38,386 bases of DNA from Candidatus Rokuibacteriota bacterium (GCA_016177865.1 JACOUJ010000239.1:1-38386); one strand, 5' to 3'; shown: positions 19,013 to 23,054, counted from the stretch's first letter. Numbers and translations: made by a program. Notes: generated by a model not told the origin, from the sequence alone.

Positions 19013-21220
19013 CTAAGGCCGTGCGGCGCCAGTCCGGGACCTTGCCGGGCCGGCTCCGTAGCGGTACAGAAACAGATACTCGTTCCTTGGGTACGTCCCA
19101 CCCAACACCATCAAGACGTTCTGATCCGGGTCGAAGACGGCCGTGTTCCCCCGGACGGGCAGCCCGTTCGGCTGCACCATCGCGTCCTTTTCCCACTGTC
19201 CCGTATCCGGGTGGTAGATGTAGAGGGTGATGTTCGCGGTCGAGAAATCCCGAATCCGGGGCCAGAGAAGGACCCCGTTGATCGAATCCCAGATGGGCAT
19301 GGCGCTGTTCCATGGCCAGTAGTCATCGGCGCCGCCGGGCGGGACCGGGTTGCTCACCGGAGTGTTGACGACGAACTCCAGCCGGCGCTGGTCGATCCAG
19401 TAGCGATAGAGCCGGCCCTGCACCGGCTCGATGACGTAGATCACCCTCCCGACGGGATCGATCGCGCCGTACTCCTCCGTGAGTCTGGCCTCTTGGAGGA
19501 CGTTGTCGTACAGGTACACTGACTCCCTGTTGCTCGCGATGGCGTAGTGTTGGATGCCGCTCCCGATGAACCGGATGATGGCGTCCGTCACGGGATCATA
19601 GACCGCGAACTTCACGCCGCCGTTAAGATGGCTCATCGTGCGATTGGGAACCGCCCACTGCTTCGTGATCGGATCGAATGTCATGATGCGATCGAGCACG
19701 AGATTCTGCGGGCACGGGTCCTCCGCAGCCGCCGACATATAGCCGGGGATCACCCAGAAAATGTGGCGTAGAGTGTCGTACACCCAGCCGACCTCGTCAG
19801 GATGGCTGGGCTGGACCGAGCCGGGCGGCCCGCAATACGGATATTCCAGCACCCACGTGTCATCCGCGACCGAGTAGGAGTAGACCTCGTTGCGTCCGGA
19901 GTCGTAGCCGATGAGGCCCGCGTAGTCGCCGCCGAGGAGATACAGACGGCCGTTGACTGGGTTGTGCGCGAGCCGCATGTGCTTCCCCGCCTGCGGGCCC
20001 TTACCATGTGGCGGAAGGCGCCGGGCCACCCATGTTCTGAGCGGGAGGTCGACTGGGCCAATCGGCAGGGAAGCGGCAGTTGCCGGCGATTCAAAGCCAA
20101 GTGGAAGAATTACGGGCGGCGGTGTTGGCCAAGGCCTGTCGTTGGTGAGCGTCCCGTTGCCGGCCCGAAGCGATTGTCCAACCCGGGAGGGCACATACTT
20201 GAATGCCCAAACGTCGCGCAGGTCCGTGGTGCTCTTGAGAAGGAACACCTGGTGGTGTGAGTCGTACGTCAGGTTGTTGCCGGCCCCGGGATTGATCCCC
20301 GGCGGCGCGGAGACTGGCAACTCGCTCCAACGGTTGAGGGCTGTCTCGTACACCCACACGTCCGACAGCTCGACACCGCCCTTCCCGTGCCCTCCTACCA
20401 GCAGGGCCACACCATTCACGCTGTCGAAGGCCACGTTTGGCGCAGTCCTTCCTGGAGGAGACACAGGAGGATTTCGCTTCGTCCAGACCCGCGTACCGGC
20501 ATCGAAGCTCCACGTTTCGCTCGAGTCACTGCCCCCAAACATGACGAAGACCCGCTGCTTCGTGTCGTAAACAAGTCCCGGAGACATACGGTGCGAGGGA
20601 CTGTTGGGGACCTCCGTCCACACGTTGGCATTGTGGTCGTAAAGCCAGGAAGGCCCCTTAGTCGTCAGGACGAGATCGTGATCCGGATCAAAGGCGCTCG
20701 CCGCCGACTCGCCGATGTATGGCTCCACGGGTGGCATCATTCGCTTTCCGCGTCCCGCCTTGAGATCGTATACGTACGTCGTGTGGGCGGTGTTGCCGTG
20801 CAGCGTCTGGTTGCCCTTGGTGATGTAAAGATCGTGTAAGGTGTCAACCGCGACGTTGCCCTGATCATGGCCCACACCCGGAAGGAACTCGCTCCAAGCG
20901 GCCTCGGTGACCTCGAGGAGCTCCCACCGATTCAGAGCGAAATCGTAGGCCAGCAGGGCGTTCTGGTCCTCCCCATCGCTCACGCTAATCGCATGGTATT
21001 GCCCAAAGACCAGTGCCTTCCTGAGGGCGGGGGTGTAGACAAAGGAGTTGTAGCCTTCGTCCCCGATGCCGTTACCCGTAGCCACGCCTCCGGCCCGTAG
21101 ATTGACCCAGATATTGGGCGGCAATTCTCGAGCTTCCAGTCGCGTTTGGGTGCCAGACAAAGTAAGGGCCAGACAGGCGACGGCGAGCGTACGTGCGGCG
21201 CTAGCTGCCCGATCGGTCAT
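19013..21220 (-). CDS. secreted tandem Kelch-type beta-propeller protein (two propeller domains joined by a Pro-rich linker)
   Basis: Start at MTDRAASAARTLAVACLALTLSG (signal-peptide-like; ATG 21220-21218, ATGA overlap with the upstream stop). Kelch-like strands recur: VFVMFGGSD..TWSFD...VWT, ALLVGGHG..DVWVYE...NRWSE, RLYLLGGDY...VYSYS...DTWV and VLMVLGGTY. The linker RPWPTPPPVILPLGFESPATAASLP lies at about 20036-20188. The track ORF extension to 21532 is out of frame with the upstream gene. Confidence 0.75.
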   Translation of the reverse strand: MTDRAASAARTLAVACLALTLSGTQTRLEARELPPNIWVNLRAGGVATGNGIGDEGYNSFVYTPALRKALVFGQYHAISVSDGEDQNALLAYDFALNRWELLEVTEAAWSEFLPGVGHDQGNVAVDTLHDLYITKGNQTLHGNTAHTTYVYDLKAGRGKRMMPPVEPYIGESAASAFDPDHDLVLTTKGPSWLYDHNANVWTEVPNSPSHRMSPGLVYDTKQRVFVMFGGSDSSETWSFDAGTRVWTKRNPPVSPPGRTAPNVAFDSVNGVALLVGGHGKGGVELSDVWVYETALNRWSELPVSAPPGINPGAGNNLTYDSHHQVFLLKSTTDLRDVWAFKYVPSRVGQSLRAGNGTLTNDRPWPTPPPVILPLGFESPATAASLPIGPVDLPLRTWVARRLPPHGKGPQAGKHMRLAHNPVNGRLYLLGGDYAGLIGYDSGRNEVYSYSVADDTWVLEYPYCGPPGSVQPSHPDEVGWVYDTLRHIFWVIPGYMSAAAEDPCPQNLVLDRIMTFDPITKQWAVPNRTMSHLNGGVKFAVYDPVTDAIIRFIGSGIQHYAIASNRESVYLYDNVLQEARLTEEYGAIDPVGRVIYVIEPVQGRLYRYWIDQRRLEFVVNTPVSNPVPPGGADDYWPWNSAMPIWDSINGVLLWPRIRDFSTANITLYIYHPDTGQWEKDAMVQPNGLPVRGNTAVFDPDQNVLMVLGGTYPRNEYLFLYRYGAGPARSRTGAARP

Positions 21221-22545
21221 GGGAGCGCCCTCACGTAGATCTGCTTGGTAGCTGGCGGCGGGCTCTTTTCCGCCCAGATGACGTATGGCGTCCGGCGGCT
21301 TATTGCTAGCGCGGGCGTGTCCGCCGCGCCACTTTCCGAATCCCTGAGCGGGACCGCAAGCGGCGCGCTCCAGCCGGTGCTGCCGAAGGACCTTACGTAA
21401 AGCTTGGCCCGCTGTCCGGGACGGCCCTCGGGCCACGTCAGCCACAGGCCCCCCTCGTCGCCGACGAGCGCCGCGCGGCCGGCTTCCCCAGCGTCTGGAT
21501 CCGCGTTCAAAGCGTCGCCATGAGCCACCCACCGGCTCCCGTCCCAGTGCTTGACATAAATCCGGTTATTCCCGCTACTCGGGCGCTCCTGCCAAGCCAC
21601 ATAGGCACGGCCGGCAAGTCCAGCCATCGCGAGATAGTTTGCGTACCCTCGGGGCGAGACATTGAGACGATCCCCGACGGTGACCCAATCGCCCAGGGAA
21701 AGCCTGGCGACCCGGACAGCCGCCGGACGGTACCCTGCCCTGCGCTTGGACTCCGACCAGGCGATCCACGGCTCACCTCCGAGGTCGGCGATCGCGAGAT
21801 CGATGATCGTCGCATCGCCCACCTGCCGGCTCTCCCATAGATCTTTCCCGTCCTGGACCCAACGGCCGTCCTGCAAGTGTTTGACGACCAATACGTTGTA
21901 GCTCACACCGGAGCCGGGCATGACGCGCGTCTCGATCCACGCCGCATAGAGACGGCCACTGACGACGGCAAGCTTCGGACGGCGAGCGGATGGGATATAC
22001 CCGGTTTCCTTCAAGCCGACGTCCGTATTCAGGGCTCCATTCAACTGTTCGGTATTTGGATCCTCGACCCACCTCGCGCCATCCCAGTGGGCCACAAAGG
22101 CGGAGGAGCCGAAATGAACGCCCCTAAGAGTTCCCCAGCCATACCCTCCACCCTCGTACCACGCCACGTAGGGTGCCTTGCCGAGGAGAGCGATGGAGGG
22201 CGCGTAGGCGCTTGGCCAGGTGGCGCCCGCCCCCGCATGGCCCCGGGCGTGTCCGATCCTGCCGCCGAGTTGCTCCCACTGCCCGTTCGCCCATTTCTTG
22301 ACGTAGATCGCGGAAAGTTCCCAGATACCGGGCCGCCGGTGCTGCGCCCACGCCGCATACAGCGTTCCACCGTCGTCGGCCGCAATGACCGGATTCGACG
22401 CCCAGCCCCAGGGGTCGGCGCTCAAGGTGCCATCGAGGAGGCTCCCCCCGAGCAGGCCACTGCCCACCGTGCCGCCGAGGAGCGTCGCGATCGTGGCTAG
22501 GATGAAAGCGCTGGCCACGGCCCAGCGAAGTCGCAGAGCATTCAA
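21217..22545 (-). CDS. secreted protein built from seven tandem ~45-55-aa repeats (predicted 7-bladed beta-propeller), unrecognised family
   Basis: 442 aa. N-terminal signal anchor MNALRLRWAVASAFILATIATLLGG (TTG start 22545, TTGA overlap). There are seven copies of the pattern x-Y/W-V/A/I-A/I/T-W-x-E ... I/V-Y/V-V-K/R-x-W-x-G-x-x-W. Examples: LYAAWAQ..IYVKKWANGQW, PYVAWYE..FVAHWDGARW, LYAAWIE..LVVKHLQDGRW, PWIAWSE..VRVARLSLGDW, AYVAWQE..IYVKHWDGSRW, LWLTWPE..LYVRSFGSTGW and PYVIWAE..IYVRAL. Confidence 0.7.
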   Translation of the reverse strand: MNALRLRWAVASAFILATIATLLGGTVGSGLLGGSLLDGTLSADPWGWASNPVIAADDGGTLYAAWAQHRRPGIWELSAIYVKKWANGQWEQLGGRIGHARGHAGAGATWPSAYAPSIALLGKAPYVAWYEGGGYGWGTLRGVHFGSSAFVAHWDGARWVEDPNTEQLNGALNTDVGLKETGYIPSARRPKLAVVSGRLYAAWIETRVMPGSGVSYNVLVVKHLQDGRWVQDGKDLWESRQVGDATIIDLAIADLGGEPWIAWSESKRRAGYRPAAVRVARLSLGDWVTVGDRLNVSPRGYANYLAMAGLAGRAYVAWQERPSSGNNRIYVKHWDGSRWVAHGDALNADPDAGEAGRAALVGDEGGLWLTWPEGRPGQRAKLYVRSFGSTGWSAPLAVPLRDSESGAADTPALAISRRTPYVIWAEKSPPPATKQIYVRALP

Positions 22546-23054
22546 GGCATCAGCTCCAATACTTGCTCGAGAATCGCTATGGCCGAATTCAGGTCGTGAA
22601 TGGCCGCGGGGATCTGTCCCGGCGAGATCACCGGCGAGTCACCGCGGATATGCCTGTCCACGACGCCTCTGATCTGTACCCACGCCTCATGCGTTCTCTT
22701 CGATTCATAGTCCAGGAGAGGATCCGGAAACCTGGCGTACTGCTTCGCCCAGTACATCCCCGTGACTGCCAGCCTGACTTGGGCGTACATCTCGCTCATA
22801 ACCCCGTGTGTCTGATTGAAGCTCTCGAGGGCGTCTGGGCCCGCAAGCTGCCCAACCGCGAACTTACCCAGCCGGACAGCTGAGCGAACCTGCCCCGCGA
22901 TCACGACGGGGTCCGTGCTGACTCCCCCACCGATGTCCCTGACTCCTCCCAAAGGCGGCGCGGCGAATGCGATCTGGGATGCCGCTACCAGAACACACGC
23001 TCCAGCAAGGATGAACGAGTGAGCGATTGTCGTCCTGTCCCGGCCGATTCTCAC
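22542..23054 (-). CDS. small secreted, probably helical hypothetical protein (170 aa)
   Basis: GTG 23054-23052 forms a GTGA overlap with the upstream GT4 stop and gives MRIGRDRTTIAHSFILAGACVLVAASQIAFA|AP, which looks like a signal peptide with an AxA site. The remainder has no motif I recognise. The track ORF extension to 23300 lies inside the GT4 gene in another frame. Confidence 0.55.
   Translation of the reverse strand: MRIGRDRTTIAHSFILAGACVLVAASQIAFAAPPLGGVRDIGGGVSTDPVVIAGQVRSAVRLGKFAVGQLAGPDALESFNQTHGVMSEMYAQVRLAVTGMYWAKQYARFPDPLLDYESKRTHEAWVQIRGVVDRHIRGDSPVISPGQIPAAIHDLNSAIAILEQVLELMP

What the first reader, a model, noticed from the sequence alone, without database searches (positions are those of the whole stretch)
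19013..23054. Translationally coupled three-gene secreted module of unknown function inside the glycan operon
Three consecutive genes sit between the GT4 block and the ligase-like gene. Each begins with a signal-peptide-like N-terminus and none matches a known exosortase-locus family I can name. They are a 170-aa probably helical protein (22542-23054), a 7-repeat putative propeller (21217-22545) and a 735-aa double Kelch propeller (19013-21220). They are chained by 4-nt start/stop overlaps (GTGA at 23051-23054, TTGA at 22542-22545, ATGA at 21217-21220), which argues for fixed-stoichiometry co-expression and possibly a complex. None carries a PEP-CTERM tail, so they are not exosortase cargo. 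Their position immediately upstream of the Wzy_C-type ligase suggests an extracytoplasmic glycan-handling, scaffolding or depolymerising apparatus. That role is inference only.
Basis: partly seen in the sequence, partly recalled or inferred. Interest (0 to 1): 0.78.

Follow-up and report, generated by a model that had tools for sequence, protein, structure and literature searches.

The report
Conserved exported propeller module, function unknown
Three overlapping genes in a soil bacterium's surface-sugar operon encode a small helical protein and three beta-propeller domains that are exported, recur together (sometimes fused into one protein) in uncultured bacteria, match no described family for two of the parts, and probably bind or trim the cell's own sugar polymer.

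Summary
Three minus-strand genes, A (22542-23054, 170 aa), B (21217-22545, 442 aa) and C (19013-21220, 735 aa), are chained by 4-nt start/stop overlaps. They sit inside an XrtA/PEP-CTERM polysaccharide operon of a Candidatus Rokubacteria MAG.

A and B match no Pfam, NCBIfam or PDB sequence. B models confidently as a 7-bladed propeller. C is two propellers: C_N, a clear Kelch, and C_C, joined by a disordered linker.

- **Co-occurrence:** in about 35 related loci B is always followed by C_N, usually with the same xTGA overlap. B and C_N are often fused into one chain, and some chains carry B, C_N and C_C.
- **A:** it is a real, fast-evolving family of 49 clusters. It sits upstream of B only in the polysaccharide-locus form.
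- **C_C:** elsewhere it is usually a separate, sometimes lipoprotein-like, gene.
- **Export:** all parts have export-type N-termini and none has a PEP-CTERM tail.

Function is untested. My best guess is an extracytoplasmic glycan-processing complex (confidence 0.4), with a non-catalytic glycan-binding scaffold as a close rival.

The 4-nt overlaps are the norm in this operon, and adjacency to the ligase is not conserved.

The parts
22542..23054 (-). Gene A: 170-aa exported small protein, probably helical. It is a member of a new family with no Pfam, NCBIfam or PDB match.
   Evidence: ORF and GTGA overlap. No family hit. Positional orthologues at 25-34% identity lie upstream of B in about 20 loci. 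phmmer against 1.84 billion representatives finds 49 clusters, nearly all 150-170 aa. Hydrophobic periodicity is helical.
22962..23054 (-). Signal-peptide-like N-terminus of A (residues 1-31, ending ...IAFA|AP).
   Evidence: Most hydrophobic 15-mer starts at residue 10. Orthologues have the same layout with A-x-A|Q sites. SignalP was not available.
21217..22545 (-). Gene B: 442-aa protein with an N-terminal hydrophobic helix and a 7-bladed beta-propeller. It belongs to a new family with the invariant motifs WYEGGGYGWG, GRIGH, GEAGRP and WAEKxPPPxTKQ.
   Evidence: Seven repeats. AF2 pLDDT 90.6, pTM 0.88. About 55 homologues, none named. Invariant columns are listed. No Pfam or NCBIfam hit.
22477..22545 (-). 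N-terminal hydrophobic segment of B (residues 1-23): a signal peptide or a signal anchor.
   Evidence: Hydrophobicity. AF2 helix at residues 4-23 followed by a low-confidence linker. Present in all orthologues.
19013..21220 (-). Gene C: 735-aa protein made of a signal peptide and two beta-propellers.
   Evidence: ORF and ATGA overlap. Kelch Pfam hits above cut-off. AF2 model.
20186..21133 (-). C_N: Kelch propeller of about six blades (residues ~30-345), the obligate partner of B.
   Evidence: PF24681 82.5 bits and PF24981 74.2 bits, both above the cut-off of 50. Lies immediately downstream of B, or fused to it, in every locus that has downstream DNA. Invariant polar residues are dense in blades 1-3.
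20063..20179 (-). Pro-rich disordered linker (residues 348-386) that joins two proteins encoded separately elsewhere.
   Evidence: pLDDT below 50 for residues 348-386. In separate C_C genes this position is taken by a signal peptide.
19046..20053 (-). C_C: second, divergent propeller (residues ~390-725) with a conserved Cys pair (C463, C503).
   Evidence: AF2. It is a separate gene, often on the opposite strand, in L001, L004, L012-14, L018, L023, L028, L030 and L037. It is fused to C_N in L003 and L022. Some orthologues have lipoprotein-like signals.
23051..24358 (-). Upstream GT4 glycosyltransferase whose stop codon overlaps A's start (context).
   Evidence: Pfam Glycos_transf_1 at 4e-39. 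A GT4 gene precedes A in the related loci.
17690..19003 (-). Downstream TIGR03097 exosortase-A-associated O-glycosylation ligase (context). Its adjacency to the module is not conserved.
   Evidence: 439 bits against a cut-off of 188. A ligase lies near the module only in L003 and L022.

Best explanation
A, B and C are exported proteins that assemble outside the cytoplasm into one multi-propeller unit. The core is B (a 7-bladed propeller) bound to C_N (a Kelch propeller). In polysaccharide loci, C_C and the small helical A join the core.

I commit to this unit being a glycan-processing enzyme complex. It would cleave, trim or otherwise act on the acidic, heavily modified polysaccharide made by the surrounding XrtA-type operon after export by Wzm/Wzt. 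That makes it the counterpart of the dedicated periplasmic glycanases of other exopolysaccharide systems.

The working site would lie on the 'top' face of B, possibly shared with blades 1-3 of C_N. A would be an adaptor or regulator specific to the polysaccharide-locus form.

- **Shown:** the families exist, the parts co-occur, they fuse, they carry export-type features, and the folds are propellers.
- **Inferred:** that they form a physical complex, that the substrate is a glycan, that they are catalytic, and what A does.
For: **Obligate partnership**
- B is followed by C_N in every locus with downstream DNA.
- 21 of 23 separate-gene loci have the xTGA overlap.
- A->B overlaps are conserved in 17 loci.
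- Natural fusions exist: B-C_N (P0033, P0034, P0065, P0072-75, P0077, P0085; L007-9, L011, L019) and B-C_N-C_C (P0060, P0086).
- No full-length C_N was found fused to any partner other than B or C_C. One, P0064 (411 aa), has no context data.

**Extracytoplasmic location**
- Hydrophobic N-termini are present on all parts and lost exactly where parts are fused.
- C_C has a conserved Cys pair.
- Fused relative L033 ends in MYXO-CTERM, 30.3 bits against a cut-off of 20.

**One asymmetric functional site**
- The 47 invariant positions of B include blade-specific motifs that are not repeated in other blades.
- All of these fall in the B-C and D-A loops, that is, on one face.
- C_N has about 60 positions conserved at >=95%, many of them polar, concentrated in residues 36-160.

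**Glycan link**
- The best solved-structure matches of B are enzymes acting on carbohydrates with acidic sugars. These are GH145 (5mum, 5mvh, BT3686; E 1e-10, TM 0.52), sialidases, and PL24/25-type lyases (7drq, TM 0.54).
- Distant B relatives hit the blade motif of BNR_4, the PL25 ulvan-lyase domain.
- Large fused forms carry a weak NosD/beta-helix region and FN3 domains.
- Context is polysaccharide synthesis in the window, L001-4, L012-23, L037 and L038.
Against: - No catalytic motif or known enzyme family is matched. B has no Asp-box or FRIP motif, and no Pfam, NCBIfam or PDB sequence hit.
- Fold matches are weak: TM 0.5-0.6 at 9-16% identity. B matches non-enzymatic FG-GAP-type and tail-fibre propellers equally well.
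- Kelch propellers are usually binding modules.
- The fused forms with FN3 domains and a sorting tail look like adhesins.
- Some related loci carry a separate beta-helix protein that could be the glycanase instead.
- The conserved face of B could simply be the interface with C_N.
- Stand-alone B-C_N proteins occur away from polysaccharide genes.
Confidence: 0.4

Rival explanations
1. The unit is a non-catalytic scaffold that binds the polysaccharide or another ligand. It would hold or organise the exported polymer at the cell surface, in the way the beta-propeller matrix proteins Bap1 and RbmC do in Vibrio cholerae (that comparison is from my own knowledge).
For: Kelch and FG-GAP-like propellers are typical binding modules. 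Fused relatives have FN3 stalks and C-terminal sorting tails, an adhesin-like architecture. No catalytic signature was found. Some C_C orthologues look like lipoproteins, which suggests membrane tethering.
Against: Multivalent propeller lectins repeat their binding motif in each blade. In B the distinctive invariant motifs are blade-specific and single-copy. The density of invariant charged and aromatic residues is high for a pure scaffold.
Confidence: 0.32
2. The proteins are acceptor substrates, that is, glycoproteins, of the neighbouring TIGR03097 O-glycosylation ligase, rather than factors that act on the glycan.
For: The ligase is immediately downstream in the window, L003 and L022. Ala/Ser/Pro-rich low-complexity stretches follow the signal peptides of several C_C orthologues, and the C linker is similar.
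Against: In most loci with 10-kb flanks no ligase is nearby. B-C_N occurs in genomes and contexts with no polysaccharide genes at all. Strict conservation of the propeller faces is not explained by an acceptor role.
Confidence: 0.08
3. The module is a periplasmic ligand-sensing accessory that feeds the PrsK/PrsR two-component system. This would parallel the double-propeller glycan sensors of Bacteroides hybrid two-component systems.
For: The best whole-chain fold matches of C are the BT4673 and BT4663 sensor domains. PrsK is in the window. A PrsR-like sigma-54 activator sits next to the module in L004.
Against: Those matches are generic double-propeller hits with TM 0.26. The module is not fused to, or consistently adjacent to, any kinase. 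Stand-alone forms lack two-component neighbours that fit this role.
Confidence: 0.05

Closest known systems
GH145 rhamnosidases and PL24/PL25 ulvan lyases (seven-bladed propellers of the sialidase superfamily; Pfam BNR_4)
   Same: They share a 7-bladed propeller with four-stranded blades. They are the best Foldseek E-values for B. Distant B relatives match the last-blade motif of BNR_4. They are secreted and act on glycans containing acidic sugars (PMC13193363).
   Different: Sequence identity is 9-14% and TM about 0.5. B itself has no BNR_4 hit. Profile searches against PDB sequences find none of them. B has its own invariant motifs and an obligate Kelch partner, which these enzymes lack.
GH33 sialidases
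   Same: Propeller fold with Foldseek probability 1.0. B has a hairpin motif of the form D-G-x-x-W between strands C and D, which resembles half of an Asp-box.
   Different: Sialidases have six blades, not seven. B has no canonical Asp-box in 30 of 30 family members and no FRIP motif.
Kelch-repeat propellers (KLHDC/KLHL type; bacterial NanM/YjhT mutarotases)
   Same: C_N passes the Pfam Kelch thresholds. KLHDC10 is the best single-domain fold match, at TM 0.63 normalised to the target. Like NanM, it is periplasmic and linked to sugars.
   Different: NanM-family models score 16-19 bits against cut-offs of 243-416. C_N has its own conserved block (GDEGY, YH, GEDQNALLAYD, PGxGHDxG) and is tied to B.
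Dedicated periplasmic glycanases of exopolysaccharide operons (AlgL, PslG, PelA, BcsZ). This is a functional analogy from established knowledge.
   Same: An exported protein is encoded inside the biosynthetic operon, between the glycosyltransferases and the late-acting membrane steps.
   Different: The folds are unrelated and no activity has been shown here. This module is multi-subunit, and its core also exists outside polysaccharide loci.
NCBIfam XrtA/PEP-CTERM system-associated families (TIGR03087/88, TIGR04063, TIGR03097, TIGR03108 and others)
   Same: Same operon and same type of locus.
   Different: None of these models, and no other NCBIfam model, matches A or B. C has only sub-threshold mutarotase hits. 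The module is present in only a subset of such loci and is rare: 6 hits among 185,579 species-representative genomes.

Membership tests
Kelch-repeat beta-propeller (Pfam PF24681, PF24981, PF01344 and related) | Whole-protein score above the Pfam gathering threshold | tested here: met
   For protein C: PF24681 82.5 bits (cut-off 50), PF24981 74.2 (50), Kelch_6 43.0 (25.3), Kelch_1 37.2 (20.1). The strong stretches lie in C_N. C_C gives only one short Kelch_6 stretch, at residues 422-457.
Kelch-repeat beta-propeller | Propeller of about six four-stranded blades | tested here: met
   The AF2 model has two propellers of about six blades each, counted from DSSP strands. pLDDT is mostly above 85 within the domains.
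GH33 sialidase | Asp-box repeats (S-x-D-x-G-x-T-W) and a FRIP motif | tested here: not met
   0 of 30 B-family sequences have a canonical Asp-box. There is no conserved RIP motif.
GH33 sialidase | Detectable sequence homology to solved sialidases | tested here: not met
   Best profile hit against PDB sequences has E 0.25. It aligns to a non-catalytic N-terminal stretch.
GH145 / PL24 / PL25 (BNR_4, PF15892) | Match to the BNR_4 domain model | tested here: not met
   B has no hit. Distant relatives match only model positions 226-266 of 272, a single blade motif.
GH145 / PL24 / PL25 | Seven-bladed propeller fold similar to solved members | tested here: inconclusive
   They are the top Foldseek hits (E 1e-10) but TM is only 0.51-0.55 with rmsd about 7 A. 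Viral FG-GAP-type propellers match as well or better, at TM 0.56-0.62.
GH145 / PL24 / PL25 | Catalytic His/Tyr/Arg residues in the cleft (PL25) or posterior His (GH145) | not testable with these tools
   Model coordinates and residue-level structural alignments are not returned by the tools.
PEP-CTERM exosortase cargo | C-terminal PEP motif, then a hydrophobic helix, then a basic tail | tested here: not met
   The C-termini of A, B and C lack all three elements.
NanM/YjhT sialic-acid mutarotase | Score above the NCBIfam cut-off | tested here: not met
   NF010730 19.2 bits against 416. TIGR03547 16.1 against 256.
Defined XrtA/PEP-CTERM-associated protein families (NCBIfam) | Match to any such model | tested here: not met
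   No NCBIfam hit for A or B and none of this kind for C. Neighbouring genes do match: TIGR03097, TIGR04063 and TIGR02916 above cut-off, and TIGR03108 strongly but below its cut-off.
Sec-exported proteins | Predicted signal peptide (SignalP or DeepTMHMM) | not testable with these tools
   Only heuristics were available: hydrophobic N-termini, A-x-A sites in A orthologues, lipobox-like signals on some C_C orthologues, and loss of these segments at fusion points.

The most novel reading that the evidence does not exclude
B and C_N together form a previously unrecognised two-propeller carbohydrate-active enzyme, which would be a new glycoside hydrolase or polysaccharide lyase family with a composite active site. 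It would be dedicated to remodelling XrtA-type exopolysaccharides. A would be its secreted helical inhibitor or adaptor, and C_C a membrane-tethering subunit.
Probability: 0.22. Interest if true: 0.72.

Novelty: new variant of a known kind. Interest (0 to 1): 0.55.

Why it matters
XrtA/PEP-CTERM polysaccharide loci are widespread in soil and sediment bacteria, yet their extracytoplasmic steps are poorly understood. This work defines a conserved exported module made of four domains. Two of its families (A and B) are in no database, and fusion evidence indicates that its parts act together.

If the module is catalytic, it would add a new enzyme family for acidic microbial polysaccharides. If it is a binding scaffold, it would show how such polymers are held at the surface in uncultured phyla such as Rokubacteria.

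The module is rare. There are a few dozen sequence clusters, and only 6 of 185,579 species-representative genomes carry it. Its reach is therefore limited.

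Tried and rejected
- **Structure of A.** Both prediction jobs then went to B and C, so A's helical nature rests only on hydrophobic periodicity.
- **Sequence searches against the PDB.** Single-sequence and profile searches for A and B found nothing usable. 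The weak 'exo-alpha-sialidase' hit (E 0.25) aligns to a non-catalytic N-terminal segment and was discarded.
- **Word-indexed homologue search for A.** It found only A itself. This would have suggested an orphan gene, but locus comparison and the exhaustive phmmer search overturned that.
- **Foldseek of C.** It returned only generic double propellers with TM 0.26.
- **Foldseek of B against viral models.** It gave uncharacterised FG-GAP-like and tail-fibre propellers, which weakens the enzyme-specific reading.
- **Literature.** Searches for Kelch or propeller proteins in exosortase, Rokubacteria or O-antigen-ligase contexts found nothing relevant.
- **Tracking with XrtA itself.** This could not be tested beyond the window and L004, because flanks are limited to 10 kb and XrtA lies 17-20 kb from the module in the window.
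- **Galactose-oxidase-type chemistry for C_N.** I considered this only by eye. C_N has no invariant Cys, but the copper ligands were not formally tested.

Full report
**What is there**

The window is a contig of a Candidatus Rokubacteria MAG. Its three products are deposited as hypothetical proteins HYS14_06955, HYS14_06950 and HYS14_06945. All genes in the region run on the minus strand.

- Gene A (22542-23054, 170 aa) starts at a GTG that overlaps the TGA of the upstream GT4 gene.
- Gene B (21217-22545, 442 aa) starts at a TTG that overlaps A's TGA.
- Gene C (19013-21220, 735 aa) starts at an ATG that overlaps B's TGA.
- Each start has a Shine-Dalgarno-like sequence 7-10 nt upstream.

The 4-nt overlaps are real but not distinctive. 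At least eight other junctions in this operon have the same arrangement, at 4567-4570, 5583-5586, 8901-8904, 11325-11328, 12059-12062, 14697-14700, 24355-24358 and 30251-30254.

**Context**

The operon is an XrtA/PEP-CTERM-type polysaccharide locus.

- Models scoring above their cut-offs: PrsK (TIGR02916, 434 bits against 300), the TIGR04063 glycosyltransferase (491 against 442), and the exosortase-A-associated O-glycosylation ligase TIGR03097 (439 against 188).
- An exosortase/EpsI gene is present.
- There are three AsnB-like genes. They match the XrtA-system amidotransferase model TIGR03108 strongly but below its cut-off.
- Also present are several GT4 and GT2 genes, and a Wzm/Wzt ABC exporter with a Wzt_C domain.
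- Further genes encode methyltransferases, a carbamoyltransferase, a polysaccharide deacetylase, two SGNH/GDSL proteins and FemAB-like proteins.

**The three products**

*A and B.* Neither matches anything in Pfam, NCBIfam or PDB sequences.

*B repeats and fold.* B contains seven repeats of 53-60 residues with the pattern p-x-L-A ... Y-V-A-W-x-E ... I-Y-V-K-x-W-D-G-x-x-W. With a 52-sequence alignment, AlphaFold2 gives a 7-bladed propeller preceded by a hydrophobic helix at residues 4-23 (mean pLDDT 90.6, pTM 0.88).

*C.* It passes the Kelch thresholds. It models as two propellers of about six blades each (residues ~30-345 and ~390-725), joined by a disordered Pro-rich linker.

*A's likely fold.* Its alignment-averaged hydrophobicity has a clear peak at 100-110 degrees, which indicates alpha-helices.

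*Termini.* All three N-termini have a basic stretch followed by a hydrophobic stretch. None has a PEP-CTERM tail.

**Conservation and co-occurrence**

B has about 55 relatives in 5.8 billion clustered proteins. None is named or annotated with a domain.

I collected loci in three ways:
- look-ups of contigs encoding B homologues;
- a scan of species-representative genomes, which gave 6 hits: three Nannocystaceae MAGs, two DPANN archaeal MAGs and one weak hit;
- a metagenome scan, which gave 26 loci, mostly from soil.

*B and C_N.* In every locus with DNA downstream of B, the next coding sequence is a homologue of C's N-terminal propeller, C_N.
- In 21 of 23 loci where the two are separate genes, they share the same xTGA overlap.
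- In L007-9, L011 (two tandem copies) and L019, they are one open reading frame. The same is probably true in L005, L021 and L035.

*C_C.* C's C-terminal propeller is a separate gene in most loci, often on the opposite strand and with its own signal peptide, which in some cases looks like a lipoprotein signal. This applies to L001, L004, L012-14, L018, L023, L028, L030 and L037. C_C is fused to C_N only in the window, L003 and L022. The window's 'double Kelch propeller' is therefore a fusion of two distinct proteins.

*Domain mapping of database hits.* Mapping shows B-C_N chains (P0033, P0034, P0065, P0072-75, P0077, P0085) and B-C_N-C_C chains (P0060 at 1208 aa, P0086 at 1244 aa). No full-length C_N is attached to any other partner. 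These recurrent fusions are far stronger evidence for a physical or functional unit than the overlaps are.

**Gene A is not an orphan**

The word-indexed search found only A itself. However, a 150-170-aa ORF sits immediately upstream of B in about 20 loci.
- It has a signal peptide, a matching length, 25-34% identity to A, and the shared invariant residues Q55, A59, Y90, R94, P112, A124, W125 and R129.
- It usually has a GTGA overlap onto B.

An exhaustive phmmer search finds 49 clusters, almost all 150-170 aa. None has a convincing Pfam or PDB match.

A, and usually C_C, accompany B-C_N only in the polysaccharide-locus form. They are absent where B-C_N is a single large stand-alone protein.

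**Two contexts for the core**

*Polysaccharide-locus form.* The neighbours are orthologues of this window's genes: the GT4 genes (including the TIGR03088-like and TIGR04063-type ones), the CapK-like ligase, the methyltransferase, the AsnB-like amidotransferases, Wzm/Wzt and the deacetylase. L004 also has EpsI and a sigma-54 response regulator.

*Stand-alone form.* B-C_N is embedded in proteins of 770-2400 aa.
- These carry FN3 domains and a weak NosD/beta-helix region.
- They end in C-terminal sorting tails. L033 has a MYXO-CTERM tail above threshold. L011 and L019 have 'GCG, hydrophobic stretch, RRRR' tails.
- The neighbourhoods are unrelated to polysaccharide synthesis.

The core is thus an autonomous extracytoplasmic unit that some polysaccharide operons have recruited.

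**Clues to function**

*Conserved face of B.* B's 47 invariant positions include blade-specific motifs: GRIGH, WYEGGGYGWG, GALN, LNxD...GEAGRP and WAEKxPPPxTKQ. Placed on the DSSP strands, all of them fall in the B-C and D-A loops, which form one face of the propeller. The repeated W-x-E at the end of strand B looks structural.

*Conserved block of C_N.* C_N has about 60 positions conserved at >=95%, rich in Asp, Glu, His, Asn and Arg, and concentrated in residues 36-160. C_C has a conserved Cys pair.

A single asymmetric conserved site is more typical of an enzyme, or of a specific interface, than of a multivalent lectin.

*Fold matches of B.* Foldseek places B nearest to GH145 hydrolases, sialidases and PL24/25-type lyases. 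Distant B relatives match the terminal blade motif of BNR_4, the PL25 ulvan-lyase domain. These similarities are modest, with TM 0.5-0.55. Viral FG-GAP-like and tail-fibre propellers match as well or better. B also lacks Asp-boxes and a FRIP motif.

*Fold matches of C.* They are generic.

**Interpretation**

Shown:
- a conserved module with export-type features;
- two new protein families (A and B);
- an obligate B-C_N pairing;
- frequent addition of C_C and A.

Inferred:
- the parts form a complex;
- the complex acts on the operon's polysaccharide.

I favour a glycan-processing enzyme complex (confidence 0.4) over a non-catalytic binding or anchoring scaffold (0.32). An acceptor-glycoprotein role (0.08) and a sensor-accessory role (0.05) are minor alternatives.

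**Novelty and score**

No paper in the searchable library links Kelch or propeller proteins to exosortase loci. No curated model covers A or B.

The folds and the general idea, exported accessory proteins in a polysaccharide operon, are familiar. I therefore rate this a new variant of a known kind.

Interest is moderate at 0.55. The module is a clean and testable lead with strong comparative support. It is also rare, confined to uncultured lineages, and of unknown function.

Noticed in passing
L033:1869-4172; L011:5325-9917 and 8612-13063; L019:3294-7766: Stand-alone B-C_N fusion proteins end in C-terminal sorting signals. L033 has a MYXO-CTERM tail (TIGR03901, 30.3 bits against a cut-off of 20). 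L011 and L019 end in 'GCG, hydrophobic stretch, RRRR' tails after FN3 domains. So relatives of a module that lacks PEP-CTERM here are sorted cargo elsewhere.
   Followed up: partly
L005 (Woesearchaeota MAG JACPMP010000059) and L006 (Aenigmatarchaeota MAG): B-C_N-FN3 proteins are encoded on contigs binned as DPANN archaea. In L005 the neighbours are a restriction-modification system and a PP-loop ATPase, not polysaccharide genes. I did not check whether this reflects cross-domain transfer or mis-binning.
   Followed up: partly
L001:512-964 (the gene right after Wzt): A 150-aa ORF overlapping the end of the Wzt gene is a weak paralogue of family A (hmmsearch E 1e-7). This hints that A-like helical proteins may also pair with the ABC exporter.
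   Followed up: no
P0127 (581 aa, from the representative library): An orthologue of the upstream GT4 gene reads through into an A-family sequence that still has its signal peptide. This is probably a frameshift or gene-calling artefact at the GTGA junction rather than a true fusion.
   Followed up: partly
window 26732-28753 together with 17690-19003 and 955-4570: The locus combines XrtA/PrsK markers with an O-antigen-style Wzm/Wzt ABC exporter (Wzt_C cap-binding domain) and a WaaL-like TIGR03097 ligase. The polymer may therefore be built and capped in the cytoplasm and then ligated to an acceptor, rather than made by a Wzx/Wzy route.
   Followed up: no
window 28812-30254 and 30251-31441: Two adjacent SGNH/GDSL-family genes lie next to a carbamoyltransferase (31632-33407), a methyltransferase and a deacetylase. 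This points to heavy O-acyl and carbamoyl decoration of the glycan.
   Followed up: no
window 7732-8904: A 390-aa ORF has weak hits to the prenyl-cyclase-type alpha/alpha toroid fold (SQHop_cyclase_C, 3e-7) and to Pec_lyase (5e-4). It is another candidate glycan-active protein in the same operon.
   Followed up: no
L004:17180-18385 and L037:15383-16648: Related loci encode a separate right-handed beta-helix protein (Beta_helix, Pel9A-like) near the module. The large fused B-C_N proteins have a weak NosD/beta-helix region N-terminal to B. The association between a beta-helix and B-C_N may be meaningful.
   Followed up: partly
P0062 (HYS14_00550, same Rokubacteria MAG, 938 aa): The same genome encodes a second C_C-type propeller (69% identity over that half) behind a different N-terminal region of about 390 aa. 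C_C therefore has a wider life than C_N.
   Followed up: no
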